Assembly (NCBI RefSeq): GCF_009914755.1
Contig: NC_060941.1
Direction: 5' to 3' (one strand)
Length of the DNA stretch: 64,000 nucleotides
DNA from: the human T2T-CHM13v2.0 reference genome, Homo sapiens
The notes under the pieces are model-generated. The model was not told the DNA's origin. It was given only the letters and a program-made list of their open reading frames with translations, and did no database searches. Both the position numbers and the translations under genes were made by a program. How positions within the stretch are numbered: position 1 is the first letter of the stretch; every line of letters starts with the position of its first letter. This document shows positions 18,725 through 60,344 of the stretch, piece after piece.

Positions 18725-21738
<3,014 letters not shown>

Positions 21739-21903
21739 AGACCACCTCAAACGACAGTGCCTCCACTCAGGGCTCCTTCCCCTAATCAGACTCAGGTAAA
21801 CAAACACTTTCTTCCATGTACTTGCTTTTAACTTCATTAATTCACTTCCCCATCTGTAAATTCATTTCCTCATTCATTCATTTATTCATTATTCACTCGA
21901 TAA

Positions 21904-22865
<962 letters not shown>

Positions 22866-23399
22866 TCTATAAGTCTTTTCTAAGCACAACATAGGTTGAT
22901 GCCAGCAGATACGGGATGAACTAATGAGTGACAGAGGCAATCTGCTGTAAGAAATTCTAACAGCCAGGAAGGCTTCAAGTTGGGGTGATACTGGAGCAGG
23001 GTCTGGAAGGAGGAAAGTTGGGGAAAATGCTGGGATCCCACAGCAATGTGAAGAGGGCCCCAGTGGGAGGTCGCCAGCCCATGGGACGCAGCCCGTAGGA
23101 CCTTAATGCTCCCCAGCATATGAGTAGTGCATGTTCTTCCTCTCTTTGCCATGCCTGTCAGGAAGCTCAGAGCTCAGCTTGGTGCAAAGGTAGCAACTGT
23201 TGTTTGCCAGAGGTTTTGTAGTTATCTCTGTTTTGTCGCCCAAAATCTTTGACCTTTACATTGTCTATGTCTCTTATGGAAAACTTGAAATTGATGGAGT
23301 AAAATTAATAATAATAATAAAGACCTGATTCTCAGTAAGTGATGGATTCAGGACGTAAATGCAGCTCAGAGTCCAAGAGTTGTAGACTGACACCAGGCT

Positions 23400-23830
23400 T
23401 GTATTAGCTATCACTGCAATAATGCCACATAACAAACCACCCCAAAACTCAGTGGTTTAGAACAATCATTTAATTCCCCCTGATGCATCTGCAGGTTAGC
23501 TGAAGGTCAGTTGGTCTTGGCTGGGTGGCTCTGCCTCAGGCTAGGCTGGGATACAGGCTCTAGGCTGGGCTCTGGCTGTTCCATGTGTCTCTTGGCGGGG
23601 CGAGGCTGAAGGGCCGGCAGCCATTCAGGGGGACAATCTTCTCACAGCAGAAGCCAAGAAGACAGCTCCACTGTGGAAGTGCACCTCAAGCCTTTGGTCT
23701 TGTTATAGCCACTGCTATCCCATTGACCAAAGCAAGTTACATGGCTGAGCCCAGAGTCAAGAGACAGGGAGTGCACTCTGCCCACCTAGAGGCCGTGGCC
23801 AGCGTGAGGGGCCAATGATCAATGCCACAT
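23400..23830. mobile_element. MLT1-type (ERVL-MaLR) LTR (mirrored at ~58418-58848)
   Basis: TGTATTAGCTAT...CATAACAAACCACCCCAAAACTCAGTGGTTTA, a typical MLT1 end. Confidence 0.65.
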
Positions 23831-24122
23831 GCCATTTGCATCATCCAGTCTGGTCTCCACCCCTATTTCTCAGATGGGTACCCCAGGTGGATCAGTGTGG
23901 GACCAGGCAGGGTGCCCTGACTTCCCATTCCCTTTTCACAGCCCCGAGCAGGATCTCATATCACCTGGCTGATCCTCCTGGGGTGGGACCAATTCTGGAA
24001 ACTGCAGTTGCAGGTGGAAGAACCTGGACTTCGGAATCACAAAGACCTGAGTTCTCTGCTCCCCAAGGCCAGCAGTGAGTCCCTGAGCAAGTCCCACCTA
24101 CAAAGGAGGAAACTGAGGCTCA

Positions 24123-24359
<237 letters not shown>

Positions 24360-25552
24360 TCACTTGAGCCCAGGAGATCAAGGCTGCAATGAGCTATGAC
24401 AGCACCACTGCCCTCAAGCCTGGGCGACAGAGTGAGACCCTGTCTCAAAAAACAAACAGCCAGGAGCCGTGGCTCAGGCCTGTAATCCTAGCACTTTGGG
24501 AGGCTGAAGTGGGTGGATCACTCAAGGTCAGGAGTTTGAAACCAGCCTGGCCAACATGGTGAAACCCTGTCTCTACTAAAAAAAATACAAAAAAATTAGC
24601 TGGGCGTGGCTTCCGTGGGTTCCCTATCCCATGGAGAACCCACGGGACCAAGCAGGCAACTGCTTTCGTGTATTGCTTCATTGAATCCTCACAACCACCT
24701 TGCCTTATAAAAGAGGTGTTGCTATTATCCCCGTTCCACAGAAGGGGAAACTGAGGCACAAAGCAGAAAGGTCACGTGCCTGGAATCACACACCAGAAAG
24801 TGGCACAGCTGGGATTTTAACCCATGCCTGCCATGCTAGGACCAGCATCCTAGCAGCCAGGCACCATCCCCCAGCCCAGGCTGACTGCCCGTGCCCAGCT
24901 GGACTCCAGGGCTTGGCAGTCCCCAGGATGAAAAGAGGCCCCTCCCTGGGCCCTTCAAGTCACTCTGCCTGGGGGTGACACATGCAGCCACATAGGTCTC
25001 CGTGAGTTGCGGTAAGGTCTTGGGTCTCTTTATCCCTGGCATGCGGCGGGGGCACCAAAGTGACCTCAGGGATGCGGAAGTACAGGAGCCAGATTGCCAG
25101 CTGTGTGGCTCTGGCAAGTCACCTCCCCTCCCTGAGTCTGTTTCCTCAACTATAAAAAGGGATCAGTAAATGTCTCTTACTCATGGGATTGTGGGGGATT
25201 AAATTATTTGATAAATAAATGAATCATTTAGGAAAGTTCCTGGAATATAGAAACACAAGAAGAGGCAGAGGAGGAGGGGGGACAATATTACTATTGATAA
25301 TATTATCCTGGGAAGCTTTTGCTGCCAGAAGCAGGAGGGACAATTTGCTGGGAAGGAAGACCCTAGGAACCAGTCCTTCCTGTGGACCTGGGACCCAGCA
25401 CATTGCAGGTAGTTGGAAGGGGCCTCAGACCATCTCTGGAAACTCCATTCTATAGATGATGAGACTGAGGCCTGGGAGAGGCAGCCCCTGGGTCCAGGCT
25501 GCTCAGCAGAGCAGGCAGGCTGCCTGGCCCCACCTGGCCCCCTGCCCTCCTT

Positions 25553-26185
25553 CCATCCAGTCAGTCCCCATCCACCAGTCCCAATCCACCCAGTATCCAT
25601 CTACCCAGTTCCCATCCACCCAGTCCCCATCCACCAATCCCCATCCACCCAGTCCCCATCCACAAATCCCCATCCACCCAGTCCCCATCTACCAATCCCC
25701 ATCCACCCAGTCCCCACCCACCCAGTCCCCATCTACCCAGTCCCCATCCACCCAGTCCCCATCCACCAATCCCCATCCACCCAGTCCCCATCCACCCAGT
25801 CCCCATCCACCAATCCCCATCCACCCAGTCCCCACCCACCCAGTCCCCATCCACCAATCCCCATCCACCAATCCCCATCCACCCAGTCCCCATCCACCAA
25901 TCCCTACCCACCCAGTCCCCATCCACCCAGTACCCATCCACCAATCCCCACCCACCCAGTCCCCATCCACCCAGTCCCCATCCACCCAGTACCCATCCAC
26001 CAATCCCCACCCACCCAGTCCCCATCCACCCAGTACCCATCCACTCAGTCCCCATCCACCCAGTATCCATCTACCCAGTCCCCATCCACTCAGTCCCCAT
26101 CCACCCACTATCCATCCACCCACTCCCCATCCACCCAGTCCCCATCCACTCAGTACCCATTCACCCAGTCCCCATCCACCCGTTT
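25553..26185 (+). repeat. Minisatellite of mixed 15-mer CCCCATCCACCCAGT and 14-mer CCCCATCCACCAAT units
   Basis: Roughly 40 variant units read directly from the sequence. Source of the Pro/Ser/His-rich spurious ORFs. Confidence 0.95.
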
Positions 26186-27612
26186 CCCATGCACCCTCAC
26201 CCAACCCTGGTCTCCAGTCTCTCAGATTGAGGTCACCTCAGCTTCTCTGCACTGCAGTGGCCAGTGCAGGCAGTGCCCCCAGCCCCCCAGCTTGACCTCT
26301 GACCTTCCAGGACTCCAGGTTCCCACTCCAGCAGGTTAACAGTGCCAGTAATTCTGCTATCATTGCGCCTCCATGGGGTGCGGGGAGCAGGCTGTGTGGG
26401 CCCTTGGAAGCTCCCTAGGAAAGGATGAACCCCACAGTCCAGGGTCCTCTGCACAACGCTCAGAGCAGGATGGAGGAACATTGGGGGAAGAAGGTGGGCA
26501 GGCCCCAGTGTAGGAGACACCAACATCCCCCACCCATATCCTGTTCTGAGGCCAGGAAGAGGCCTGACCTACCCCTCCTCCTCCAGTGAGCCTTTCTTGG
26601 CTGACCAGGAGGCAGCTCTGTACAAGGGCTCCAGCCCAGGGCTGTGAGCAAGGGAGACCATGGGCCAGCCCCACCCCTTCTGGGTCTCTTGTTCCCTTCA
26701 TAACTGGAGGACAGATGGCAGCAGCACTCAGGAAAGGCTCAATGCTGATGCACCCGGGAAGTGCTGTGCTGCACGGGCCCAGTGGCTGGACAGGACTGTG
26801 GGAGCCCACCCAGCCCCTTCCTCCCTGTCTTAGTGTGTTTGGTGTTGCTCTAACAGAATACCTGAGACTAGGGCATTTACTTCTTTGTTTGTTTTTTAGA
26901 CAGGGTCTTGTTCTGTCACCCAGGCTGGAGTGCAGTGGCCCCTTCAGCTCACTGCAGCCTCCACTTCTTGTGCTCAAGTGATCCTTCCACCTTAGCCTCC
27001 AGAGTAGCTGGGACTACAAGTGTATGCCACCACACCTGGCTAATTTTTTAAATTTTTGTAGAGATCGCATCTCACTATGTTGCCCAGGCTGGTCTCGAAC
27101 TTCCTGGCCTCAAGCAATCCTCTCACCTTGGCCTCCCAAAATGCTGGGATACCATGCCTGGGCATAATTAAATTTCGGCAGGAGCACCTCCTTTACGCCT
27201 CAATCTGTGCCTCACCAAGGCCAGCGCTGCACGACTCCAGGGGGCCATGCATGTGTCCTGGCCGACCATCCTCCCCTGACCAAGATGCATTCTGAAAAGA
27301 TCCGGGGGCCGGCTCTGGGCCTTCACACATGCTGTTCTCTCCACCTGGAACACACTTCGCTTTCTCAAACGCCACCTCCCATTTATTTTTCAGCATACAG
27401 TTAAAAAATAAACTCCTGGGAAACCTGCCTTTATCCAGCTGGTAAAGTTCTCCTGTAGGTTCCCACAGCACCCGCTGCCTCAGTCTCCTCCCCATCCTGT
27501 CGCCCCACCGCCCCACCGCCCCACCGCCCCACCACCCCACAACCCGCCGCTCTCTCTGTCTCCCCAGGCTCAGCCCTACTGGTGCCTCCTTGCGCCCGGA
27601 CACGTGTAGACA

Positions 27613-27626
27613 GCGCCCTCTGCTGG
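27613..27626 (-). promoter_or_regulatory. CTCF motif (points away from palindrome centre)
   Basis: Reverse complement CCAGCAGAGGGCGC matches the CTCF core CCASYAGRKGGCRS. Adjacent E-box CACGTG at 27601-27606. Confidence 0.75.
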
Positions 27627-28062
27627 CGACTCTCAGCTAGCCGCTCAGCCTCGCCCGCCTGGGTCCCAGCTCTGCCCCAGGCTCAGGTCCGGGGCCCTGG
27701 AGGTCCAAATGAGGCCAGAATCCCGGGAAGAGTCACCCGGAGAGGAGCCTCGGTCTCGGAGCCACAGACCCTGCTCAAATCCCTCTCCTGCCTTCTAATT
27801 TTCATGTGGCCTCGAGCAAATCATCTTCCTTCCTTGAGATTCAGTTTCCCCTTCCGCAAAATGTATCCTCCACAACTCTTCCCTGAGTACTTACCGTGTG
27901 CTAGATACTGAGTTGGGCACCGGCGATACCGCAGGGACAACGATGAGCAAAGTCACTGCCTCAGGAAGCTGACATAGAGGGGACGGGCAATAAACAATAA
28001 ACACAACGCGGAATGTCAGTTGTCTATCTAGCACAGGGTGAGTGCTTAAAGAAGTGAAGCCG

Positions 28063-30667
<2,605 letters not shown>

Positions 30668-30845
30668 TCAAGGGGTGAAAGCCAAGAAGGAGCAGGTCAC
30701 TGCTGCAGGCAGCAGAGGCTCAGTGCTCTTGGGCGAGCACAGCTCGGAAGTGTCCCAACAAGGGCTGGAGAGGGTGGCACTTGTCCTCACTGTTCTTTTG
30801 CCCTTCGCCCGGGCTGAGCATTCTCTTGAAGCCAGAGAAAGTCCG

Positions 30846-33359
<2,514 letters not shown>

Positions 33360-33429
33360 TTATTAGGTAGTTATAGTTGAGAGAGGGTGTGGTGAGAACA
33401 CGAGAGTGGCCTCAGCCCAGTCCCACCAG

Positions 33430-33800
33430 AGTCTGCGGAGCCGCTGTCTGTCCCTGCTCCTGGCCGGTCTGCGGCAATCCCGTCATTTCTGCCTCGGTCT
33501 CTGCGTCTATGGGTACCGGTGCGTGGGTGGGTCAGTCTCTCTCTTGCGTTCTGTGTCTGTGTGGCCCGGACGCTGAGGGGTGTGGAGTGGCCCTGCCACA
33601 GGCCGTCCTTAGCACAGCCCCCGGGGGACCCCTCATTCACTTCCGGGACCGGAAGGCGACCTGTAGTTCCAGAAGCCGCCGCAAGAGGGCAGAGGCGGCC
33701 ATAGGATGGGGCGCGGCCCGCTGGGGGCTGCCTTGAGATGCGGCTAAGAAACCCGGCAGCCCTGGGAGGAACCACACTCCCAGCGCCCCACATGTGGGTT
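33430..33800. promoter_or_regulatory. Small CpG-rich promoter-like element (two ETS/GABPA sites, ACTACA motif, YY1-like site)
   Basis: CACTTCCGG 33638-33646, CCGGAAG 33649-33655, TGTAGTTCC 33662-33670 and GCGGCCAT 33695-33702 in locally CpG-rich unique sequence. Confidence 0.65.
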
Positions 33801-34294
33801 CGAACCTGGGCTCCTCCATTCCTAGGTTAAGGCTCTTAATCCTGCCACCAGTAAAATGGGTTACTGTAAGCTTTAAATAATGTGAATATAAGGTACCTAG
33901 TTTGTGAACCTGTTTTTCCCGTTTGCTTGGGGAACTGTGGACCTCCCACAGGGGCTGGGACCTTTTAATAAGTCATACAATTTAAGGAATTTTTATTTCC
34001 CTAGTGTCTGGTACTGAAAGCAGTGAGCAAGGGAATGACATGATTAGAAAATGAAATAGAAGGAAAAGGAGGAGGGGGAGTGGAAGAGGAGGGGGAAGAG
34101 GAAAAAGAATATGATAAAATGCACTTAAAAAAAAATCCAGGGGCCAGACATGGTGGCTCACACCTGTAATTCCAGCACTTCGGGATGCTGAAGTGGAAGG
34201 GATTACTTGAAGCCAGGAGATCAAGACCAGCCTGGGCAACACAATGAAATCCTGTCTCTACAATAAATAAATAAGTAAATAAATAAATAAGTCA

Positions 34295-34477
<183 letters not shown>

Positions 34478-34766
34478 CTACCCCTCATCAATAACCACAT
34501 TGGGTTTTTGGGTTTTCATACGTGAATTTGTGGTCTTTTTCTCACAACAAACTCATACATCCAAATATAAATTTATGAATATTTGCTCACAAACTCAAAG
34601 GTGCAAGAAATGTCACACTACTTCATTAAATTAAAAAAAAATTTTAAGTACTTGTTTTATAAACATGCTCAACAGAAAAAATCCAAGCCACTTAGAAAGT
34701 ATACAGAAAAAAAGCAATAAATCTCCCCCATCTGTGGGGTTTTATATTTCATGAACATCATCATAG

Positions 34767-35141
<375 letters not shown>

Positions 35142-35544
35142 TAAGACTGGGATCATAACCCATGCTATTCTGTTTGTGTGTGAACAGCCAGTGACTTGTC
35201 ATTATGTACGTATGCCTGTGTGTTTTAAGTGTTTTAAAAAATTAATTAGTAGAGGGCAGGCACAGTGGCTCATGCCTGTAATCCCAGCACTTTGGGAGGC
35301 CGAGGTGGACAGATCACCTGAAATCAGGAGTTCAAGACTAACCTGGCCAACACGGTGAAACCCCATCTCTACTAAAAATACAAAAATTAGCCAGGCATGG
35401 TGATGCATGTCTGTAATCCCAGCTACTTGGGAGGCTGAGGCAGGAGAATCTCTTGATTCAGTGAGACAAGATCGCACCACTGCACTCCAGCTGGGACACA
35501 GAGCAAGACTCCGTCTTTAAAAAAAAAAAAAAAAGAATTAATTA

Positions 35545-37272
<1,728 letters not shown>

Positions 37273-37594
37273 TCAGGAGGCCGAGGCACGTGACTCACTT
37301 GAACTCAGGAGGCAGAGGTTGCAGTGAGCCCAGATCGTGCCACTGCACTCCAGCCTGGGTGATGAAGTGAAACTCTGTCAAAACAGAAATTATTCTCTCG
37401 CAGTTATGAAGTCTCAAAGGGGGATCCTTCCTTGGCTCCTCCGGCGTCTGGAGGCTACTGGCCATCCTGGTGTTACTCAAACACCAGGGGTTCCATCTAG
37501 GGCCTGCCACTCACCTCACAGAAAGCCAATCAGTGAGACAACGATTCTTGCCAAGGAAGAAGGCTTTAATCAGGTGCTGCAGCTGAGGGGATGG

Positions 37595-39390
<1,796 letters not shown>

Positions 39391-39409
39391 TCCCCCCTAA
39401 AAAAAAAAT

Positions 39410-39735
39410 TGTTTTTAAGAGTCAAGATCTCACTCTGTCTCCCAGGCTGGGGTGCAGTGGGGTAACTGATCAGAGCTCACTGCAGCTTTGAACTCAGCCA
39501 GCTTCCCTGACTCAAACGATCATCCCGCTTCAGCCTCCCGAGTAGCTGGGACTACAGACGGTGCCATCACGCCCAGCTCATTGTTGATTCCCGCCCCCTT
39601 GGTAGAGACGGGATTCCGCTATATTGCCTGGGCTGGTGTCGAACTCATAGAACAAAGGATCCTCCCTCCTGGGCCTGGGCGTGGGCTCGCAAAACGCTGG
39701 GATTCCCGGATTACAGGCGGGCGCACCACACCAGG
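39410..39735 (-). mobile_element. Strongly remodelled antisense Alu abutting the U3 DSE (mirror 42507-42832)
   Basis: Alu skeleton recognisable but with many atypical substitutions and insertions, and CpG-rich. Confidence 0.75.
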
Positions 39736-39742
39736 AGCAAAC

Positions 39743-39798
39743 ACTTCCGGTTTTAAAAATTCAGTTTGTGATTGGCTGTCATTCAGTATTATGCTAAT
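39743..39798 (+). promoter_or_regulatory. Distal sequence element of left U3 (ETS ACTTCCGG, inverted CCAAT, octamer-like ATGCTAAT)
   Basis: ACTTCCGG 39743-39750, ATTGG 39771-39775 and ATGCTAAT 39791-39798 (about -226), the usual DSE position of snRNA-type promoters. Confidence 0.8.
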
Positions 39799-39954
39799 TA
39801 AGCATGCCCGGTTTTAAACCTCTTAAAACAACTTTTAAAATTACCTTTCCACCTAAAACGTTAAAATTTGTCAAGTGATAATATTCGACAAGCTGTTATT
39901 GCCAAACTATTTTCCTATTTGTTTCCTAATGGCATCGGAACTAGCGAAAGTTTC

Positions 39955-39971
39955 TCGCCATCAGTTAAAAG
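39955..39971 (+). promoter_or_regulatory. Proximal sequence element (PSE, SNAPc site) of left U3
   Basis: TCGCCATCAGTTAAAAG at -62 to -46 resembles the PSE consensus. No TATA box, so Pol II snRNA-type. Confidence 0.85.
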
Positions 39972-40016
39972 TTTGCGGCAGATGTAGACCTAGCAGAGGT
40001 GTGCGAGGAGGCCGTT

Positions 40017-40233
40017 AAGACTATACTTTCAGGGATCATTTCTATAGTGTGTTACTAGAGAAGTTTCTCTGAACGTGTAGAGCACCGAAAACCACGAGAA
40101 AGAGAGGTAGCGTTTTCTCCTGAGCGTGAAGCCGGCTTTCTGGCGTTGTTTGGCTGCAACTGCCGTCAGCCATTGATGATCGTTCTTCTCTCCGTATTGG
40201 GGAGTGAGAGGGAGAGAACGCGGTCTGAGTGGT
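40017..40233 (+). ncRNA. SNORD3: U3 small nucleolar RNA gene (box C/D), 217 nt, variant copy (box C' G83A, C133U)
   Basis: Starts AAGACTATACTTTCAGGGATCATTTCTATAG (boxes A'/A) and ends GGTCTGAGTGGT. Box B GAGCGTGAAG 40122-40131, box C TGATGA 40174-40179, box D CTGA 40225-40228. Box C' reads GAGAAAGA (40096-40103) instead of GAGGAAGA. Specific paralogue not determinable. Confidence 0.97.
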
Positions 40234-40247
40234 TTTTCCTTCTTGAT

Positions 40248-40261
40248 GGCTCAATGACAGA
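40248..40261 (+). terminator. Putative 3' box (Integrator 3'-end formation signal) of left U3
   Basis: GGCTCAATGACAGA about 15 nt downstream of the mature 3' end; degenerate match to the 3' box consensus ending in ...AGA. Confidence 0.5.
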
Positions 40262-40504
40262 GACTAGCTCGTAAACTCCGGGGCGTTTCTGGGCTGTTCG
40301 CTCCTGCTTGGCAATGTAGCGAGAAAGGTTTTCGCCTCCTGTTTCAGCGGTGACGGCTCTTGGGTTTTCTCGGGGTGGCTTTTTAATTTTAGTCTTGGCG
40401 CGAGGCGGGGGATGCTGTGTGGCACCTCCTATTGTCTCTTTTTGCGTTTTCTCCCATTCTCGCTCCCTCTTTTGTCGCCGTTTCCCGCCCGCCACTCCCA
40501 CCCC

Positions 40505-40946
40505 CAGACGGGGTCTCCGGGTCTCTTGTTCTGTCTGCCGCCCCGGCTGGAGTGCAGTGGCGCGATCTCGGCTCCTAGCAACATCTGCCTCCCGGGCTCA
40601 AGCGAGTCTCCCGCCTAAGCCCTCCCGAGTAGCCGGGGCTTAAAGGCGCACACGCCACTCCAGGCTTTTTTTTTTTTTTTTTTTTTTTTTTTTGGCAGAA
40701 ACGGGGTGTCAGCATGTTAGCCAGGCTGGTCTCCAACGCGTGATCTCAGGTGATCCGCCGGCCTCGGCCTCCCGAAGTTCTGGGATTACAGGCGTGAGCC
40801 ACTGCACCCGGCCCTTCTATTTTTTTAAATAGCGACGGGGTTTCACCATGTTGGCCAGGCTGCTCCTGAACACCTGAGTTCAGGTGATCCGCCCGCCTCG
40901 GCCTCCCGAAGTTCTGCGATTACAGGCGTGCCACCCGCACCCGGCC
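40505..40946 (-). mobile_element. CpG-rich antisense Alu plus extra left monomer downstream of U3 (mirror ~41318-41745)
   Basis: Alu consensus with retained CpGs. The palindrome inner boundary lies in the last monomer. Confidence 0.85.
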
Positions 40947-41338
40947 CTAAAAGTACTTTTTATAGAGATGGGGTCTCACTCTGTTGCCCAGACTGGTCTC
41001 AAACTGCTTATCTCAAGTGACTGACTGTCTGCCTCAGCTGCCCAAGTAGCAGGGATTACAGACACAAGCCACAGCCGCTGGCTCTATTCAGGAACATCTT
41101 AGTTCCAAGTTTTGGCAATTATGGATAAAGCTGCTATAAACAGGTGTGCAGGTTTTTGTGTGGACATTTTCAACTCATTTGGGTAGACACCAAGAGGCAC
41201 GAGTTCTGATCATACCGAAAGTGTTTAGTTTCAGAAGAAGCTGCTTTTCTTGGGCTCCATAACAAAATACACAGACTTTGTGGCTTAAATAACACAAATT
41301 TATTTCTTACAGTTCTCAGTCGGGCGCGGTGGCTCACT
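40927..41338. other. Palindrome spacer (~410 bp): FLAM/Alu, old L1 fragment and MLT1-like start; paralogous to 36785-37019
   Basis: No mirror partner at the centre. Shares the junction ...GGAACATCTTAGTTCCAAGTTTTGGCAATTATGG... with 36910-36945. Confidence 0.9.
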
Positions 41339-41986
41339 CCTGTAATCCCAGAACTTCGGGAGGCCGAGGCGGGCGGATCACCTGAACTCAGGTGTTCAGG
41401 AGCAGCCTGGCCAACATGGTGAAACCCCGTCGCTATTTAAAAAAATAGAAGGGCCGGGTGCAGTGGCTCACGCCTGTAATCCCAGAACTTCGGGAGGCCG
41501 AGGCGGGCGGATCACCTGAGATCACGCGTTGGAGACCAGCCTGGCTAACATGCTGACACCCCGTTTCTGCCAAAAAAAAAAAGCCTGGAGTGGCGTGTGC
41601 GCCTTTAAGCCCCGGCTACTCGGGAGGGCTTAGGCGGGAGACTCGCTTGAGCCCGGGAGGCAGATGTTGCTAGGAGCCGAGATCGCGCCACTGCAATCCA
41701 GCCGGGGCCGGCAGACAGAACAAGAGACCCGGAGACCCCGTCTGGGGGTGGGAGTGGCGGGCGGGAAACGGCGACAAAAGAGGGAGCGAGAATGGGAGAA
41801 AACGCAAAAAGAGACAATAGGAGGTGCCACACAGCATCCCCCGCCTCGCGCCAAGACTAAAATTAAAAAGCCACCCCGAGAAAACCCAAGAGCCGTCACC
41901 GCTGAAACAGGAGGCGAAAACCTTTCTCGCGACATGCCAAGCAGGAGCGAACAGCCCAGAAACGCCCCGGAGTTTACGAGCTAGTC

Positions 41987-42000
41987 TCTGTCATTGAGCC
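41987..42000 (-). terminator. Putative 3' box of right U3
   Basis: TCTGTCATTGAGCC, mirror of 40248-40261. Confidence 0.5.
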
Positions 42001-42014
42001 ATCAAGAAGGAAAA

Positions 42015-42225
42015 ACCACTCAGACCGCGTTCTCTCCCTCCCCAATACGGAGAGAAGAACGATCATCAATGGCTGACGGCAGTTGCAGCCAAGCAACGCC
42101 AGAAAGCCGGCTTCACGCTCAGGAGAAAACGCTACCTCTCTTCCTCGTGGCTTTCGGTGCTCTACACGTTCAGAGAAACTTCTCTAGTAACACACTATAG
42201 AAATGATCCCTGAAAGTATAGTCTT
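42015..42225 (-). ncRNA. SNORD3: U3 small nucleolar RNA gene, 211 nt, variant copy (A75G; 6-nt deletion at ~nt 189-194)
   Basis: Reverse complement of U3 with intact box C' GAGGAAGA and boxes B, C, D. It reads TTGGGGAG^GGAGAGAAC where the left copy has TTGGGGAGTGAGAGGGAGAGAAC. Confidence 0.96.
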
Positions 42226-42270
42226 AACGGCCTCCTCGCACACCTCTGCTAGGTCTACATCTGCCGCAAA

Positions 42271-42287
42271 CTTTTAACTGATGGCGA
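42271..42287 (-). promoter_or_regulatory. PSE of right U3
   Basis: CTTTTAACTGATGGCGA, exact reverse complement of the left PSE. Confidence 0.85.
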
Positions 42288-42443
42288 GAAACTTTCGCTA
42301 GTTCCGATGCCATTAGGAAACAAATAGGAAAATAGTTTGGCAATAACAGCTTGTCGAATATTATCACTTGACAAATTTTAACGTTTTAGGTGGAAAGGTA
42401 ATTTTAAAAGTTGTTTTAAGAGGTTTAAAACCGGGCATGCTTA

Positions 42444-42499
42444 ATTAGCATAATACTGAATGACAGCCAATCACAAACTGAATTTTTAAAACCGGAAGT
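42444..42499 (-). promoter_or_regulatory. DSE of right U3 (octamer-like, CCAAT, ETS)
   Basis: ATTAGCAT 42444-42451, CCAAT 42467-42471, CCGGAAGT 42492-42499. Confidence 0.8.
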
Positions 42500-43336
42500 G
42501 TTTGCTCCTGGTGTGGTGCGCCCGCCTGTAATCCGGGAATCCCAGCGTTTTGCGAGCCCACGCCCAGGCCCAGGAGGGAGGATCCTTTGTTCTATGAGTT
42601 CGACACCAGCCCAGGCAATATAGCGGAATCCCGTCTCTACCAAGGGGGCGGGAATCAACAATGAGCTGGGCGTGATGGCACCGTCTGTAGTCCCAGCTAC
42701 TCGGGAGGCTGAAGCGGGATGATCGTTTGAGTCAGGGAAGCTGGCTGAGTTCAAAGCTGCAGTGAGCTCTGATCAGTTACCCCACTGCACCCCAGCCTGG
42801 GAGACAGAGTGAGATCTTGACTCTTAAAAACAATTTTTTTTTTAGGGGGGATGGTATTAAATAGATACAAAATTTACCATTTTAACCATTTTTCACATAT
42901 ACAATTCAGTGGCATTAAGTACATTCGTGTAGCCATTGGCATGTAACCATCACCATTATTTATCTCCAGAACTTTTTCGACATCCCAAACTGAAACTCTA
43001 CCCGTAAAACAAACTTCCCTTTCCTCCCTCCGCCCAGACCCCTTTAACCACTATTCTACTTTCCGTCTCTATGAATTTGATTCTTGTAGGTATCTCTATA
43101 AGTGGAAACATGCAATATTGTCCTTTTGTATCTGGCTTATTTCACTTAGAATGACGTTTTCAAGGTTCATTCACGTTGTAACATGTTGCAGAATTTCACT
43201 CCTTTTTCAGGCTGGAGTGCAATGATGCATGATGTGACAGCTCACTGCAGCCTTGACCCCCAGGGCTCGGGTGATCCTCCCACGTCAGCCTCCTGAGTAG
43301 CTGGGATCGTAGGCACATGCCATCACGCTCCGCTAA

Positions 43337-43477
<141 letters not shown>

Positions 43478-43588
43478 TAATTACATTTTTGAATTGTTCC
43501 TTGCCAGTGCATAAAAACACAACTGGACCGGGCACGGTGGCTCACGCCTGTCATCCTAGCACTTTGGGAGGCCGAGGCGGGTGGATCA

Positions 43589-43877
<289 letters not shown>

Positions 43878-44096
43878 TTATTAGCTCTGGTAATTATTGT
43901 GCGTGTATTCTTTGGGATTTTCCCTATTTAAAGCGATGGTTTTATTTCTTATTTCTCAATTTGGTGCCTTTTCTTACCTAAAGGCTCTGGCTACAACTTC
44001 TAGCAAAATGTTGACTAGGCCAGGCGCGGTGGCTCACATCTGTAATTCCAGCATTTTGGGAGGCCGAGGCAGGCAGATAACAAGGTCAGGAGCTCA

Positions 44097-44405
<309 letters not shown>

Positions 44406-44969
44406 TCACCACTAAGTATGATGGTAACTGTGGTTTTTTCACAAATACCTTTTATAATGTTGAGGCAGATCCCCTCGTTTCATAGTTTTCTCTATGTTTT
44501 AATGATGAAATGTTAGAATTTCTTAGATGCTTTTTCTGTGTCAGCTGGAATGACTGTTTTTTTCCCTTTGTTCTACTAATGCGGTACATTACGTTAACGG
44601 ATTTTCTTATGTTGAACCACCCCCTGCATTCCTGGGATGAAGCCCTCCCATCCCCTCAGCTGCAGCACCTGATTAAAGCCTTCTTCCTTGGCAAGAATCG
44701 TTGTCTCACTGATTGGCTTTCTGTGAGGTGAGTGGCAGGCCCTAGATGGAACCCCTGGTGTTTGAGTAACACCAGGATGGCCAGTAGCCTCCAGACGCCG
44801 GAGGAGCCAAGGAAGGATCCCCCTTTGAGACTTCATAACTGCGAGAGAATAATTTCTGTTTTGACAGAGTTTCACTTCATCACCCAGGCTGGAGTGCAGT
44901 GGCACGATCTGGGCTCACTGCAACCTCTGCCTCCTGAGTTCAAGTGAGTCACGTGCCTCGGCCTCCTGA

Positions 44970-45245
<276 letters not shown>

Positions 45246-45722
45246 TGAAAACGTATGTCCGCACAAGCCTGCACACATATGTTTATAGCAGCTTTACCCA
45301 TAATTGCCAAAACTTGGAACTAAGATGTTCCTAAACAGAGCCGGGGGCGGTGGCTTGTGACTGTAATCCCTGCTACTTGGGCAGCTGAGGCAGACAGTCA
45401 CTTGAGATCAGGGGTTTAGGAGCTGCCTGGGCAACAGAGGGAGACCCCTGTCTCTAATAAAATAAAATAAAATAAAATAAAATAAAATAAAAAATATGTC
45501 TTCACTTTGAGAGGCCAAGGCAGGTGGATCTCCTGAGATCAGGAGCTCAAGACCAGCCTGGCCAACATGGCAAAACCCCATCTCTACTAAAAATACAAAA
45601 ATTACACTGGGCGCAGTGGCTCCCGCCTGCAATCCCAGCACTTTGGGAGGCTGAGGCGGGCAGATCACGAGGTCAGGAGATCGAGATCATCCCGGCTAAC
45701 ATGGTGAAACGCCGTCTCTACT

Positions 45723-45954
<232 letters not shown>

Positions 45955-45997
45955 TTAGCTGGGTGTGGTGGCACACGCCTGTAATCACAGCTACTCA

Positions 45998-46168
<171 letters not shown>

Positions 46169-47099
46169 TTAGATATTATTCAGTGCTAAAAACAAATGAG
46201 CTATCAAGCCATGAAAAAACATTCAAGAACCTTAAACGCATATTACTAAGAAAAAGAAGCCAATGTGAAAAGGCCATATACTGTACGATTCCATACACAT
46301 GACCTTCTGGAAAAGCAAAACTATGGAGACAGTAAAAGGCTCAGTGGTTAGCAGGGGTTGGGGGAGGGAGGGATGGACAGGCAGAGCACAGGGGACTTTC
46401 AGGGCCACAAAACTACTCTGTATGACATGACAATGGTGGATACGGCATTACACATTTGTCCAAACCCACAGAATGTACAACACCAGGAATGAGCTGTAAT
46501 GTGAGCTATGGACCTTATTTAATAATTCCATATGCATATTGGTACATCAGTTGTAACAGAAGTATCACGCTATAATGCAAAATGTTACTAACGGGGAAAT
46601 GAGTGTAGGGGTCTGAGAGAGAGGATGTATGGGGATTCTGTTCTTTGTGCTCAATTCTTCTGTAAACCTATAACCGCTCCTCCCAGAAAAGTCTACTAAT
46701 TAATTCTTTTTTTTTTTTTTTTAAAGACGGAGTCTTGCTCTGTGTCCCAGCTGGAGTGCAGTGGTGCGATCTTGTCTCACTGAATCAAGAGATTCTCCTG
46801 CCTCAGCCTCCCAAGTAGCTGGGATTACAGACATGCATCACCATGCCTGGCTAATTTTTGTATTTTTAGTAGAGATGGGGTTTCACCGTGTTGGCCAGGT
46901 TAGTCTTGAACTCCTGATTTCAGGTGATCTGTCCACCTCGGCCTCCCAAAGTGCTGGGATTACAGGCATGAGCCACTGTGCCTGCCCTCTACTAATTAAT
47001 TTTTTAAAACACTTAAAACACACAGGCATACGTACATAATGACAAGTCACTGGCTGTTCACACACAAACAGAATAGCATGGGTTATGATCCCAGTCTTA

Positions 47100-47474
<375 letters not shown>

Positions 47475-47763
47475 CTATGATGATGTTCATGAAATATAAA
47501 ACCCCACAGATGGGGGAGATTTATTGCTTTTTTTCTGTATACTTTCTAAGTGGCTTGGATTTTTTCTGTTGAGCATGTTTATAAAACAAGTACTTAAAAT
47601 TTTTTTTTAATTTAATGAAGTAGTGTGACATTTCTTGCACCTTTGAGTTTGTGAGCAAATATTCATAAATTTATATTTGGATGTATGAGTTTGTTGTGAG
47701 AAAAAGACCACAAATTCACGTATGAAAACCCAAAAACCCAATGTGGTTATTGATGAGGGGTAG

Positions 47764-47946
<183 letters not shown>

Positions 47947-48440
47947 TGACTTATTTATTTATTTACTTATTTATTTATTGTAGAGACAGGATTTCATTGT
48001 GTTGCCCAGGCTGGTCTTGATCTCCTGGCTTCAAGTAATCCCTTCCACTTCAGCATCCCGAAGTGCTGGAATTACAGGTGTGAGCCACCATGTCTGGCCC
48101 CTGGATTTTTTTTTAAGTGCATTTTATCATATTCTTTTTCCTCTTCCCCCTCCTCTTCCACTCCCCCTCCTCCTTTTCCTTCTATTTCATTTTCTAATCA
48201 TGTCATTCCCTTGCTCACTGCTTTCAGTACCAGACACTAGGGAAATAAAAATTCCTTAAATTGTATGACTTATTAAAAGGTCCCAGCCCCTGTGGGAGGT
48301 CCACAGTTCCCCAAGCAAACGGGAAAAACAGGTTCACAAACTAGGTACCTTATATTCACATTATTTAAAGCTTACAGTAACCCATTTTACTGGTGGCAGG
48401 ATTAAGAGCCTTAACCTAGGAATGGAGGAGCCCAGGTTCG

Positions 48441-48811
48441 AACCCACATGTGGGGCGCTGGGAGTGTGGTTCCTCCCAGGGCTGCCGGGTTTCTTAGCCG
48501 CATCTCAAGGCAGCCCCCAGCGGGCCGCGCCCCATCCTATGGCCGCCTCTGCCCTCTTGCGGCGGCTTCTGGAACTACAGGTCGCCTTCCGGTCCCGGAA
48601 GTGAATGAGGGGTCCCCCGGGGGCTGTGCTAAGGACGGCCTGTGGCAGGGCCACTCCACACCCCTCAGCGTCCGGGCCACACAGACACAGAACGCAAGAG
48701 AGAGACTGACCCACCCACGCACCGGTCCCCATAGACGCAGAGACCGAGGCAGAAATGACGGGATTGCCGCAGACCGGCCAGGAGCAGGGACAGACAGCGG
48801 CTCCGCAGACT
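48441..48811. promoter_or_regulatory. Mirror copy of promoter-like CpG element
   Basis: ATGGCCGC...GGAACTACA...CTTCCGGTCCCGGAAGTG (CCGGAAGTG 48595-48603). Confidence 0.65.
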
Positions 48812-48901
48812 CTGGTGGGACTGGGCTGAGGCCACTCTCGTGTTCTCACCACACCCTCTCTCAACTATAACTACCTAATAAAACTTAAAATTGTTCTATA
48901 A

Positions 48902-49312
<411 letters not shown>

Positions 49313-49494
49313 TAGGATAAAAACAAAACAATGTTATTAAATGGTGTTGGATGCTTCCCCACAGAGGCTGTGTAGGATGAGTGCTCTGTTCAAAAACGAG
49401 TTTTAGCAAAGTGTGAGGACAGTTTTGCAAACATGTTTCATATTCCAACTCAGTAGACACAATTTTTCACAAAGTAACATTCTTCCTTTTCTGA

Positions 49495-49894
<400 letters not shown>

Positions 49895-50714
49895 TAGCCA
49901 GGATGGTCTTGATCTCCTGACCTCGTGATCCGCCCGCCTCGGCCTCCCAAAGTGCTGGGATTACAGGCGTGAGCCACCGCACCCGGCCTTAAAAAGAAGT
50001 TTTAAAAAAACTAATTTGGATTCAGTATACTAACTTTATAGCTCACTAAGCAGTCACACCCCATAATTGGAAAAACTGTGTGCAAAATACGTAAAGCCCT
50101 AACACTGTGCAGAGATTTTACCTGGGCATAATCAGCAGACTGAAAGTGAATGAAGAAGGAAATTGCCTTCCCACTGTAGTTGATTGTCTACTGAGGCGGC
50201 CACCAAGAACTTCTCCCTGCCCTGTGCCCTCCGCCACCCCCACATCCAAAGGTGAAGCCTATTTCCCCTCCCCTTGCATCTGGCCTGGCCTTGTGGCTGT
50301 TTTCACCCCTAGAATGCACCCCCACTAGAATGCACCAGAAGCGATGTTCTGGGACTTCCAAGTTAAGACCTCAAGAGGACTAGCAGCTTCTGATTGTTAT
50401 CATTTGGGATGCTCCTTCTGGAAATGAGCCACCACGTTGTGAGGAAGCCCAAGAAGCAACACAGAAAGACCCATGCGGAGAACTGAGGCCCTGGGCTAAC
50501 AGCTCCAGCTAAGCTTCTAGCTGGCAGCCAGCAGCAACTGCCAGCCACATACTTCCTATCCATGCCTATGGCATCACATCACGAAAACACAGGATGACCG
50601 GGCGCAGTGGCTCACGCCTGTAATCCCAGCACTTTGGGAGGCCGAGGTGGGCGGATCACGAGGTCAGGAGATCGAGACCATCCTGGCTAACACGGTGAAA
50701 CCCCATCTCTACTA

Positions 50715-51394
<680 letters not shown>

Positions 51395-51572
51395 CGGACT
51401 TTCTCTGGCTTCAAGAGAATGCTCAGCCCGGGCGAAGGGCAAAAGAACAGTGAGGACAAGTGCCACCCTCTCCAGCCCTTGTTGGGACACTTCCGAGCTG
51501 TGCTCGCCCAAGAGCACTGAGCCTCTGCTGCCTGCAGCAGTGACCTGCTCCTTCTTGGCTTTCACCCCTTGA

Positions 51573-51883
<311 letters not shown>

Positions 51884-52397
51884 TGATCCATCCGCTTCGG
51901 CCTTCCAAAGTACTGGGATTACAGGCGTGAGCCACCGCGCCCGGCCTATTTGAGAACTCAAACCAAGACAGGAAGAGCCGGGTAAACGCTAAGTTTAATG
52001 ATGGCCGTTATTCCAGTTATTCACTCGCATTGCCTCTTACTGTAGAGGAAAATAAACAGGAATGTAATAATCACAGCTAACATTAATTAAGCCCCTACTG
52101 GATATGATACATGTTTCAGATGTACTAACTCACTTCTTACCAACAACCGTCTGAAATATCTTTAAGTCCATTTTCCACACAGGGAAACCAAGGCATAGAG
52201 AGCCTAAGCAACTTAACATCTCATTGCCAGCAAGCAACAGCAGCAGAATTCACACCTAGAAAGTGGGGCTTAATAAAATGTAAAATTGTTCTATAAATAG
52301 ATAAAGTGTTATTAAAAAGAAAAATAGAATGAATTTTGAAACGTCAATTAATGTACTTATTTATTTATTTATTTATTTGAGATGGAGTCTTGCTTAG

Positions 52398-52541
<144 letters not shown>

Positions 52542-53523
52542 TAGTAGAGATGGGATTTCACTGTGTTAGCCAGGATGGTCTCGATCTCCTGACCTTGTGA
52601 TCCGCCCGCCTTGGCCTCCCAAAGTGCTGGGATTATAGGCGTGAGCCACCGCACCTGGCCTATTCATTTTATTTTTAAGACAGGGTGTCACTCTGTTACC
52701 CAGGCTGGAGTGCAGTGGTACAATCATGGCTCACTTCAACCTCGAACTCCTGGGCTCAAGTGATCCTCTCACCTCAGCCTCCTGAGTAGCAGGTGGACAC
52801 CACTCAGGGCCCATGTGTTCACATATTAGGCCACAGTGCCTCTCCAACCCCCAGAATGAAATCCAAGCCCCTTGGCCTGGTCCTCAAGTCTTTCTCTGAC
52901 CTGGTCATCCCTGCCACCTGCCCTCTCTTCTCCAGCTACCTTGAATCACTTGAAGAATCTCCATGCCTCACAGCTTTCATTGCTGTTACTTCTGCCTTGA
53001 ACACCCTTCCTCCTTGTCATTCCCACTTTTCAAGTCTCACATCAGCATGCACTGCCTCCTCCAGGAAGCCTCTCAGCACTCACCCCAGAGTCCGTCAGGC
53101 TCCTCCAGGTTCCTATGGCCTCCCAGCTGTCCCCTATTTGATCACAAGTGCTGGCTCTGGAAGAGTTGATAGAGGAGCAGGCGGCTGAGTGAGAGGCACC
53201 ATGAGGAGTGGGCGGCTGAGTGAGAGGCACCGTCCTGCCCCATGGTTAGCGCAAAAATCGATAAACCAGCACCCAATGGGCACCTACTGTGTGCAAGGCA
53301 CTGTTCTCAGTGCTGGGGCTACCCATGGAAGTAGACAGACAAAAATCCCCGCACTTACAGGCCGACTTTCTCCTGGGCAGGCAGACGATAAACACAGTAA
53401 GTAGGATGGAGAGCTGGGAGGTGGCCCAAGGAGAGCACATGAGGGAGGATGCTGGGCGTTCGTGCCATTTGCATGGCTATGACAGCGTGCTGCGGGGGCA
53501 TCGATGTTCCCACCTCCCCATGA

Positions 53524-54038
<515 letters not shown>

Positions 54039-54613
54039 TGACTCATTTTTTATTTTTGGTAGAGACGGGGTTTCTCAGTGTTGGTCAGGCTGGTCTCAAA
54101 CTCCTGACCTCAGGTGATCCGCCCGCCTCGACCTCCCAAAGTGCTGGGATTACAGGCGTGAGCCACCGCGCCCGGTCCGGCTTCACTTCTTTAAGCACTC
54201 ACCCTGTGCTAGATAGACAACTGACATTCCGCGTTGTGTTTATTGTTTATTGCCCGTCCCCTCTATGTCAGCTTCCTGAGGCAGTGACTTTGCTCATCGT
54301 TGTCCCTGCGGTATCGCCGGTGCCCAACTCAGTATCTAGCACACGGTAAGTACTCAGGGAAGAGTTGTGGAGGATACATTTTGCGGAAGGGGAAACTGAA
54401 TCTCAAGGAAGGAAGATGATTTGCTCGAGGCCACATGAAAATTAGAAGGCAGGAGAGGGATTTGAGCAGGGTCTGTGGCTCCGAGACCGAGGCTCCTCTC
54501 CGGGTGACTCTTCCCGGGATTCTGGCCTCATTTGGACCTCCAGGGCCCCGGACCTGAGCCTGGGGCAGAGCTGGGACCCAGGCGGGCGAGGCTGAGCGGC
54601 TAGCTGAGAGTCG

Positions 54614-54627
54614 CCAGCAGAGGGCGC
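54614..54627 (+). promoter_or_regulatory. CTCF motif (mirror, points away from centre)
   Basis: CCAGCAGAGGGCGC on the + strand. Confidence 0.75.
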
Positions 54628-56062
54628 TGTCTACACGTGTCCGGGCGCAAGGAGGCACCAGTAGGGCTGAGCCTGGGGAGACAGAGAGAGCGGCGGGTTG
54701 TGGGGTGGTGGGGCAGTGGGGCGGTGGGGCGGTGGGGCGGTGGGGCGACAGGATGGGGAGGAGACTGAGGCAGCGGGTGCTGTGGGAACCTACAGGAGAA
54801 CTTTACCAGCTGGATAAAGGCAGGTTTCCCAGGAGTTTATTTTTTAACTGTATGCTGAAAAATAAATGGGAGGTGGCGTTTGAGAAAGCGAAGTGTGTTC
54901 CAGGTGGAGAGAACAGCATGTGTGAAGGCCCAGAGCCGGCCCCCGGATCTTTTCAGAATGCATCTTGGTCAGGGGAGGATGGTCGGCCAGGACACATGCA
55001 TGGCCCCCTGGAGTCGTGCAGCGCTGGCCTTGGTGAGGCACAGATTGAGGCGTAAAGGAGGTGCTCCTGCCGAAATTTAATTATGCCCAGGCATGGTATC
55101 CCAGCATTTTGGGAGGCCAAGGTGAGAGGATTGCTTGAGGCCAGGAAGTTCGAGACCAGCCTGGGCAACATAGTGAGATGCGATCTCTACAAAAATTTAA
55201 AAAATTAGCCAGGTGTGGTGGCATACACTTGTAGTCCCAGCTACTCTGGAGGCTAAGGTGGAAGGATCACTTGAGCACAAGAAGTGGAGGCTGCAGTGAG
55301 CTGAAGGGGCCACTGCACTCCAGCCTGGGTGACAGAACAAGACCCTGTCTAAAAAACAAACAAAGAAGTAAATGCCCTAGTCTCAGGTATTCTGTTAGAG
55401 CAACACCAAACACACTAAGACAGGGAGGAAGGGGCTGGGTGGGCTCCCACAGTCCTGTCCAGCCACTGGGCCCGTGCAGCACAGCACTTCCCGGGTGCAT
55501 CAGCATTGAGCCTTTCCTGAGTGCTGCTGCCATCTGTCCTCCAGTTATGAAGGGAACAAGAGACCCAGAAGGGGTGGGGCTGGCCCATGGTCTCCCTTGC
55601 TCACAGCCCTGGGCTGGAGCCCTTGTACAGAGCTGCCTCCTGGTCAGCCAAGAAAGGCTCACTGGAGGAGGAGGGGTAGGTCAGGCCTCTTCCTGGCCTC
55701 AGAACAGGATATGGGTGGGGGATGTTGGTGTCTCCTACACTGGGGCCTGCCCACCTTCTTCCCCCAATGTTCCTCCATCCTGCTCTGAGCGTTGTGCAGA
55801 GGACCCTGGACTGTGGGGTTCATCCTTTCCTAGGGAGCTTCCAAGGGCCCACACAGCCTGCTCCCCGCACCCCATGGAGGCGCAATGATAGCAGAATTAC
55901 TGGCACTGTTAACCTGCTGGAGTGGGAACCTGGAGTCCTGGAAGGTCAGAGGTCAAGCTGGGGGGCTGGGGGCACTGCCTGCACTGGCCACTGCAGTGCA
56001 GAGAAGCTGAGGTGACCTCAATCTGAGAGACTGGAGACCAGGGTTGGGTGAGGGTGCATGGG

Positions 56063-56695
56063 AAACGGGTGGATGGGGACTGGGTGAATGGGTACTGAGT
56101 GGATGGGGACTGGGTGGATGGGGAGTGGGTGGATGGATAGTGGGTGGATGGGGACTGAGTGGATGGGGACTGGGTAGATGGATACTGGGTGGATGGGGAC
56201 TGAGTGGATGGGTACTGGGTGGATGGGGACTGGGTGGGTGGGGATTGGTGGATGGGTACTGGGTGGATGGGGACTGGGTGGATGGGGACTGGGTGGGTGG
56301 GGATTGGTGGATGGGTACTGGGTGGATGGGGACTGGGTGGGTAGGGATTGGTGGATGGGGACTGGGTGGATGGGGATTGGTGGATGGGGATTGGTGGATG
56401 GGGACTGGGTGGGTGGGGACTGGGTGGATGGGGATTGGTGGATGGGGACTGGGTGGATGGGGACTGGGTGGATGGGGATTGGTGGATGGGGACTGGGTGG
56501 ATGGGGACTGGGTAGATGGGGACTGGGTGGGTGGGGACTGGGTGGATGGGGATTGGTAGATGGGGACTGGGTGGATGGGGATTTGTGGATGGGGACTGGG
56601 TGGATGGGGATTGGTGGATGGGGACTGGGTGGATGGGAACTGGGTAGATGGATACTGGGTGGATTGGGACTGGTGGATGGGGACTGACTGGATGG
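56063..56695 (-). repeat. Mirror minisatellite (GGGTGGATGGGGACT)n
   Basis: Translated ORFs identical to the left copy. Confidence 0.95.

Positions 56696-57888: not shown

Positions 57889-58125
<237 letters not shown>

Positions 58126-59401: not shown

Positions 59402-60086
<685 letters not shown>

Positions 60087-60137: not shown

Positions 60138-60344
<207 letters not shown>

What the first reader, a model, noticed from the sequence alone, without database searches (positions are those of the whole stretch)
40096..40103. Left U3 copy has a G>A change at the k-turn G of box C'
Seen: ACCAC-GAG-AAAGAG here versus ACCAC-GAG-GAAGAG in the right copy and in canonical U3 as I recall it (position 40099, U3 nt 83). 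Known: the C'/D motif forms a kink-turn, with stem ACCAC/GUGGU, a 3-nt bulge and tandem sheared G.A pairs with box D CUGA. It binds SNU13 (15.5K), nucleates NOP56/NOP58/fibrillarin assembly and is needed for U3 stability. Inference: the change removes the first sheared G.A pair, so this copy may make an unstable or mis-assembled RNA from a fully intact promoter.
Basis: partly seen in the sequence, partly recalled or inferred. Interest (0 to 1): 0.72.

Follow-up and report, generated by a model that had tools for sequence, protein, structure and literature searches.

The report
Likely crippled U3 RNA gene copy
In this human genome assembly one of five near-identical genes for U3, an RNA needed to build ribosomes, has a one-letter change at the spot where a key protein is predicted to grip the RNA, so this copy likely makes unstable RNA while three unchanged copies likely cover for it.

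Summary
The base is there. Window 40099 is A, at U3 nt 83 of SNORD3A; the other four chr17 copies have G. Nt 83 is G1b of the box C'/D kink-turn, the guanine whose N1 and O6 are read by 15.5K-family proteins. The same slot in single-copy U8 (n.57G>A) is a listed disease variant. The copy also carries C133T, and its upstream 400 bp equal those of an unchanged copy.

It is an allele, not a fixed paralogue feature. hg19 SNORD3A has G83, and hg19 carries four other variants in its other copies, none shared with this assembly. Only 3 of 5 copies here and 1 of 5 in hg19 are canonical.

Best reading (0.62): a real loss-of-function or strongly weakened allele, transcribed normally, unstable as RNA and buffered by the other copies. 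Rivals: tolerated (0.20), a decoy or miR-U3 source (0.10), assembly error (0.08). The change is invisible in homopolymer-compressed sequence, so reads should be checked.

No RNA, read or population data could be examined. This is an ordinary kind of variant in a redundant family, but a clean natural test with matched promoters. Interest 0.3.

The parts
40017..40233 (+). U3 snoRNA gene SNORD3A (217 nt), left copy; differs from the canonical copies at nt 83 and 133 only
   Evidence: Rfam RF00012 192.3 bits versus 199.2 for the three canonical copies; differences
40099..40099 (+). G83A: A at the 1b position of the C'/D kink-turn (opposite A212)
   Evidence: hg19 SNORD3A has G
40096..40103 (+). 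Box C': bulge G80 A81 G82, then 83.A212, A84.G211, A85-U210, G86-C209, A87-U208
   Evidence: register listed; k-turn nomenclature
40091..40095 (+). 5' strand of the terminal stem (stem I, nt 75-79)
   Evidence: predicted pairing with nt 213-217, p 0.79-0.97 in the left copy; Rfam structure line
40225..40228 (+). Box D (nt 209-212), unchanged
40229..40233 (+). 3' strand of the terminal stem (nt 213-217), unchanged
40149..40149 (+). C133T, second private change; turns the loop-closing C133-G140 pair of an internal hairpin into U.G
40122..40131 (+). Box B (about nt 106-115; limits recalled), unchanged
   Evidence: no difference from the canonical copies
40174..40179 (+). Box C of the B/C motif (nt 158-163), unchanged
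40061..40080 (+). Source of miR-U3 (nt 45-64), unchanged; the partner fragment nt 75-94 contains nt 83
   Evidence: PMC7430653 passages
39955..39972 (+). PSE-like promoter element at -62 (consensus recalled)
   Evidence: motif match; upstream 400 bp identical to the SNORD3D and SNORD3C copies
39791..39798 (+). Octamer-like distal element at -226 (consensus recalled)
39771..39775 (-). CCAAT motif at -246 (role recalled)
42015..42225 (-). Right copy SNORD3C (211 nt): G83 kept, but A75G (42151) and a 6-nt deletion near nt 186-191 (about 42041)
18245..40943 (+). Left arm of a 22.7-kb inverted repeat that holds the gene
   Evidence: 99.727% identity to 41321-64000
41321..64000 (-). Right arm of the inverted repeat (runs to the window edge)

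Best explanation
This SNORD3A copy carries A instead of G at U3 nt 83, the first sheared G.A pair of the box C'/D kink-turn, and is likely a real loss-of-function or strongly weakened allele whose loss is likely buffered by three unchanged U3 copies. Shown here: the base, its slot, unchanged boxes B, C and D, and an upstream region identical to an unchanged copy. Inferred: the copy is transcribed normally. A83 loses one of the two hydrogen bonds of the 1b.1n pair, and loses the guanine N1 and O6 contacts that 15.5K/SNU13-family proteins make. On an already weak C'/D site, 15.5K and then NOP58-fibrillarin would fail to load, the RNA ends would stay unprotected, and the RNA would be degraded or kept out of the nucleolus. 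It is haplotype-level variation of the kind that both reference assemblies show across their U3 copies.
For: G at nt 83 in 4 of 5 chr17 copies and in 10 of the 15 dispersed old copies examined (15 of the 35 weaker matches were fetched). Upper-case G in the Rfam consensus. Register G83:A212, A84:G211, A85:U210, G86:C209. A glutamate bonded to G1b N1, also seen in the 15.5K-U4 complex, and the helix dipole on G1b O6 are called universal (PMC3884654). Folding is 'most sensitive' to the G1b.A1n pair (PMC5579392), and removing either guanine amino group blocks ion-induced folding (PMC5061560). U3 C'/D is a low-affinity site, and the terminal half-particle makes a major contribution to snoRNA stability (PMC5499572). 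U8 n.57 is the same slot, and n.57G>A is listed as a leukoencephalopathy variant with 7 of 263,492 alleles (PMC8248351). Four U8 box C variants reduced 15.5K binding (PMC8993069), and most box C mutants were destabilising in zebrafish (10.1101/2025.10.10.681432). hg19 SNORD3A has G83, and hg19 has four other variants over its copies.
Against: No measurement on U3 A83 itself was found or run. The passages read do not name n.57 among the U8 variants tested. The riboswitch data at 1b.1n changed the A, not the G. A.A is isosteric with G.A at the neighbouring 2b.2n slot and can be rescued by context. In protein-free folding, A83 removes a competing mis-registered helix (G83-C209, p 0.87 in the canonical copy) and leaves the true stem II in the lowest-energy structure. 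The change is silent in homopolymer-compressed sequence, so an assembly error is not excluded. The key human U3 paper (Knox 2011) could not be read.
Confidence: 0.62

Rival explanations
1. Real but tolerated: A83.A212 keeps the shape of the pair, or the motif slips one step (G82.A212, A83.G211), and assembly factors plus the intact B/C half-particle stabilise the RNA, so it accumulates near normally.
For: A.A is isosteric with G.A at 2b.2n and is rescued by tertiary context. A83 creates a GA step at 82-83 and removes a predicted decoy helix. In yeast, Rsa1 enhances Snu13 binding on the weak C'/D site.
Against: The slipped register leaves a 2-nt bulge and an A85:C209 mismatch in place of G86-C209. 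The rescue examples are at 2b.2n; changes at 1b.1n were not rescued. Adenine cannot supply the N1-H and O6 contacts (base chemistry).
Confidence: 0.2
2. Real and mildly harmful in trans: the RNA keeps an intact high-affinity B/C motif, soaks up U3-55K and 15.5K without maturing, and feeds Dicer to make more miR-U3.
For: B/C is unchanged and binds 15.5K much more tightly than C'/D. Loss of U3-55K lowers U3 and raises miR-U3 (nt 45-64), which lowers SNX27 (PMC7430653). The guide segment is unchanged, and the predicted nt 45-94 hairpin has the same energy in both alleles (-8.6 kcal/mol).
Against: The miR-U3 rise was shown for U3-55K depletion in Drosha-knockout cells, not for a C'/D defect. One copy of five and a short-lived RNA argue for a small effect (inference).
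Confidence: 0.1
3. Not a germline allele: a run-length consensus error in a segmental duplication, or a change that arose in the cell line.
For: G2A2 versus G1A3 is identical after homopolymer compression, which holds for only 73 of 645 possible substitutions. That this assembly was built in compressed space is recalled. The gene lies in a 99.7% identical inverted repeat.
Against: It would need two compensating run-length errors. The copy has a second private change, C133T, that is visible after compression. Copy-specific U3 variants are also common in the independent hg19 assembly.
Confidence: 0.08

Closest known systems
Human U3 snoRNA (RF00012; SNORD3A/B-1/B-2/C/D)
   Same: Full-length match, 215 of 217 nt identical to the canonical copies, same upstream region, boxes B, C and D unchanged
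   Different: A at the 1b guanine of C'/D, plus C133T; neither is in hg19 SNORD3A
SNORD118/U8 box C variant n.57G>A (leukoencephalopathy with calcifications and cysts)
   Same: Same G>A change at the same slot of the terminal box C/D kink-turn of an rRNA-processing snoRNA
   Different: U8 is single-copy in humans and the disease is recessive; U3 has five near-identical copies per haplotype, so no phenotype is expected from one
Non-standard kink-turns with an A.A pair (Thelohania Kt-23; SAM-I G2nA)
   Same: A.A in place of a sheared G.A pair
   Different: Those are at 2b.2n; here it is at 1b.1n, the pair reported as least tolerant
Hypermutable Pol II snRNA-type genes
   Same: Dense small variants in a short, independently transcribed RNA gene: 8 distinct events over two assemblies
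   Different: The preprint read covers spliceosomal snRNAs only and never mentions snoRNAs; G83A is not a TCW change on the non-template strand

Membership tests
U3 snoRNA (RF00012) | Full-length covariance-model match above the gathering score | tested here: met
   192.3 bits, model 1-219, cut-off 34
U3 snoRNA (RF00012) | Own snRNA-type promoter (PSE, distal octamer) rather than a retrocopy flank | tested here: met
   PSE-like at -62, octamer-like at -226; upstream 400 bp with 0 mismatches to 2 of the 4 other copies and 1 mismatch to the other 2; consensus motifs recalled
U3 snoRNA (RF00012) | Unchanged 5' domain and B/C motif | tested here: met
   only nt 83 and 133 differ
U3 snoRNA (RF00012) | Expressed, stable RNA assembled with core proteins | not testable with these tools
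   no RNA data available
Standard box C/D kink-turn (C'/D) | Canonical stem I and 3-nt bulge | tested here: met
   nt 75-79 with 213-217 predicted paired; bulge 80-82
Standard box C/D kink-turn (C'/D) | G.A at 1b.1n | tested here: not met
   A83:A212
Standard box C/D kink-turn (C'/D) | A.G at 2b.2n and G-C at 4b.4n | tested here: met
   A84:G211, G86:C209
Standard box C/D kink-turn (C'/D) | Binds 15.5K/SNU13 | not testable with these tools
   inferred lost
Fixed paralogue-specific variant of SNORD3A | Present in independent human assemblies | tested here: not met
   G83 in 5 of 5 hg19 copies, read by eye from the supplement of PMC4914119
Box C loss-of-function snoRNA alleles (U8 type) | Change at the G of the first sheared pair | tested here: met
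   U8 G57 and U3 nt 83 occupy the same slot
Box C loss-of-function snoRNA alleles (U8 type) | Measured loss of protein binding or RNA stability | not testable with these tools
   needs a gel shift or allele counts

The most novel reading that the evidence does not exclude
Human haplotypes differ in how many working U3 genes they carry, because the five-copy cluster mutates fast and is shuffled by inversion and gene conversion. The A83 copy is a transcribed decoy that binds U3-55K through its intact B/C motif and is shunted into miR-U3, so U3 dose and miR-U3 output are hidden inherited traits that short-read studies miss.
Probability: 0.1. Interest if true: 0.65.

Novelty: new member of a known kind. 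Interest (0 to 1): 0.3.

Why it matters
If real, the complete reference carries a likely non-working allele in the copy usually taken as the human U3 gene. This affects read assignment and any construct or probe designed from it. It is also a matched natural experiment: same upstream sequence, same cell, one kink-turn base changed, so allele counts in nascent versus mature RNA would measure directly what the C'/D 1b guanine does for U3 stability in human cells. The comparison with hg19 suggests that the number of canonical U3 copies differs between haplotypes (3 of 5 versus 1 of 5), which is open to a pangenome survey. No disease effect is expected from this allele alone.

Tried and rejected
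(1) A83 as a fixed SNORD3A feature: rejected, hg19 has G83.
(2) U3-specific clustering of differences between the two arms: 3 of 15 substitutions fall in the gene (P 0.0004 against the whole arm), but 15 of 27 events lie in the innermost 927 bp, and within that zone the gene is not enriched (P 0.35). Using private changes across five copies, 3 of 9 fall in the gene (P 0.04), which is weak support only.
(3) An APOBEC3 origin: G83A is not TCW on the non-template strand, and the preprint does not cover snoRNAs; not adopted.
(4) A register using G86-A87 as the sheared pairs: gives a 6-nt bulge and mismatches; rejected.
(5) A changed miR-U3 guide: the guide is nt 45-64 and is unchanged.
(6) Published mention of this allele: none seen in the listings of six searches on SNORD3/U3 variants, none from 'human U3 ... 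G83' (0 papers), none in the six supplementary files of PMC12165836. dbSNP and gnomAD could not be queried, so it may be catalogued there.
(7) Primary U3 C'/D mutagenesis papers, the U8 genetics paper and the U3 gene-cluster paper were not held. Supplements of the bioRxiv U8 preprint, which may give n.57 results, were not seen.
(8) Earlier scan findings were not available.

Full report
OBSERVATION. Rfam finds two U3 genes in the 6 kb searched: 40017-40233 (+) and 42015-42225 (-). Position 40099 is nt 83 and reads A in the left copy and G in the right. A search of the window's own genome gave 40 scored matches, of which five are full-length and near-identical (97-100%), all on contig 17; the next full-length match is 83%. 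The three copies outside the window (the SNORD3D, 3B-2 and 3B-1 places) are identical to each other over the RNA. The left copy differs from them at nt 83 (G>A) and nt 133 (C>T); the right copy differs at nt 75 (A>G) and by a 6-nt deletion near nt 186-191. Rfam scores are 199.2 for the three, 192.3 for the left and 181.5 for the right copy. Among the 15 dispersed old copies fetched (of 35 weaker matches), nt 83 is G in 10, A in 2 (one at an ambiguous gap), C in 1 and gapped in 2.

ANATOMY. Nt 75-79 are predicted to pair with 213-217, and G80-A81-G82 form the bulge. The pairs that follow are 83:A212, A84:G211, A85:U210, G86:C209 and A87:U208. In k-turn terms nt 83 is 1b (PMC5061560, passages). 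Boxes B, C and D and the 5' domain are unchanged. The 400 bp upstream are identical to the SNORD3D and SNORD3C copies and hold PSE-like, octamer-like and CCAAT motifs (consensus motifs recalled). Over 1.5 kb upstream the left copy has no private change. Both genes sit at the inner ends of a 22.7-kb inverted repeat, 99.727% identical. Of 27 differences between the arms, 15 lie in the innermost 927 bp. In the 3' flank the left copy shares alleles with the SNORD3B copies and the right copy with SNORD3D, which I read as exchange between copies (inference).

ALLELE OR PARALOGUE FEATURE. The supplement of PMC4914119 (rows seen; hg19 per passages) prints all five hg19 copies. Read by eye against the numbering: SNORD3A is canonical with G83 and C133; SNORD3C is full length with G108A; 3B-1 and 3B-2 have A78C; 3D has A4G, C53T and A78C. 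None of these four variants is in this assembly, and none of this assembly's four is in hg19. So 1 of 5 copies in hg19 and 3 of 5 here are canonical. That is 8 distinct events in 1,085 nt, against about 1-2 expected at ordinary human diversity (rate recalled; Poisson P 2e-5 to 2e-3). Reference errors in either assembly would inflate this count. SNORD3D also has the opposite strand and mirror-image spacing in the two assemblies (48,285/75,380 versus 75,418/48,357 bp), which points to a 124-kb inversion between 3B-2 and 3A. G83A is therefore specific to this haplotype or assembly, in a family where such variants are common.

MECHANISM. Shown: the base, its slot, and the unchanged remainder. From the literature: the N1 of G1b is hydrogen-bonded by a glutamate in L7Ae complexes and in 15.5K-U4, and its O6 sits on the helix dipole; both are called universal (PMC3884654, passages). 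Folding is most sensitive to the G1b.A1n pair, and the protein's specific contacts are to the 1b and 2n guanines (PMC5579392, passages). Removing the guanine amino group blocks ion-induced folding. U3 C'/D already binds Snu13/15.5K much more weakly than B/C and recruits NOP58 and fibrillarin; the terminal half-particle is described as a major contributor to snoRNA stability (PMC5499572, abstract, sections 3 and 20 and part 1 of section 24). The nearest natural precedent is U8. Its nt 55-61 are box C, so n.57 is the same slot. n.57G>A is in a table of leukoencephalopathy variants at 7 of 263,492 alleles (PMC8248351, two passages). Four box C variants reduced 15.5K binding (review PMC8993069, passages), and most box C mutants were destabilising in a zebrafish assay (10.1101/2025.10.10.681432, passages). 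Neither text, as seen, names n.57 among those tested. Inferred: the copy is transcribed, fails to load the C'/D half-particle, and its RNA is degraded or mislocalised; three canonical copies buffer the loss.

RESULTS AGAINST. A.A can replace G.A at 2b.2n and be rescued by context. The unrescued 1b.1n changes altered the adenine, so G1bA itself was not tested in what I read (PMC3651934, passages). Protein-free folding puts G83 of the canonical RNA in a mis-registered helix with C209 (p 0.87), whereas the A83 RNA places the true stem II in its lowest-energy structure. The change could thus remove a decoy while it removes a contact; such folding ignores sheared pairs and proteins. A slipped register (G82:A212, A83:G211) is possible on paper but costs the G-C pair and one bulge base. 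The substitution is invisible after homopolymer compression, a property of 73 of 645 possible substitutions, while C133T is visible. I could not see reads.

NOVEL ANGLE. Impaired U3 assembly by U3-55K depletion raises miR-U3 (nt 45-64) and lowers SNX27 (PMC7430653, passages). The A83 copy keeps that segment and an intact B/C site, so it could act as a decoy or a miRNA source. Nothing here tests that; probability 0.10.

COMPARISON AND NOVELTY. It is a member of the U3 family by sequence and promoter, but its C'/D motif fails the standard k-turn test at 1b.1n. It is predicted to work like the box C loss-of-function alleles of U8. I saw no report of this allele in seven searches (listings and abstract starts only) or in the supplements of PMC12165836 (passages; supplement search); variant databases were out of reach. 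The hypermutability preprint 10.64898/2026.10.12.758683 (passages) concerns spliceosomal snRNAs only. Knox 2011 (weak C' box) was seen as a title in a reference list only.

VERDICT. A real base difference at a structurally critical position, most likely a buffered loss-of-function allele (0.62) in a polymorphic five-copy family. New member of a known kind. Interest 0.3, mainly because it is cleanly testable and flags copy-level variation in human U3 genes.

Noticed in passing
window 42015-42225 (-), SNORD3C: A75G plus a 6-nt deletion that shortens the 3' hairpin; the lowest-energy fold of the full RNA loses the terminal stem (p below 0.1), though the 3' domain alone keeps it. hg19 SNORD3C is full length. 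Both genes of this palindrome may be impaired in this assembly.
   Followed up: partly
G000:C17 about 19,012,026-19,136,017 (L003 to L001): SNORD3D strand and spacing mirror those in hg19, pointing to an inversion of about 124 kb between SNORD3B-2 and SNORD3A.
   Followed up: partly
hg19 copies in the PMC4914119 supplement: A78C in three hg19 copies breaks a pair of the C'/D terminal stem; G108A in hg19 SNORD3C lies in box B; C53T in hg19 SNORD3D lies inside the miR-U3 segment. None is in this assembly.
   Followed up: partly
window 40017-40943 versus 41321-42225: 15 of 27 differences between the 22.7-kb arms crowd into the innermost 927 bp; the 1.7 kb just outside (38354-40090) has none.
   Followed up: partly
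L006, L008, L010-L012, L016, L018, L019, U3 nt 85: Many old dispersed U3 copies have G at nt 85 where today's genes have A, suggesting that the 3b position of box C' changed after they were copied.
   Followed up: no
canonical copy L002, nt 82-84 with 208-210: Protein-free folding predicts a mis-registered helix that competes with the C'/D kink-turn; it may contribute to the known weakness of the human C' box.
   Followed up: no
G000:C6:69842668-69842744: A 97% identical match to U3 nt 1-77 only, a young 3'-truncated copy.
   Followed up: no
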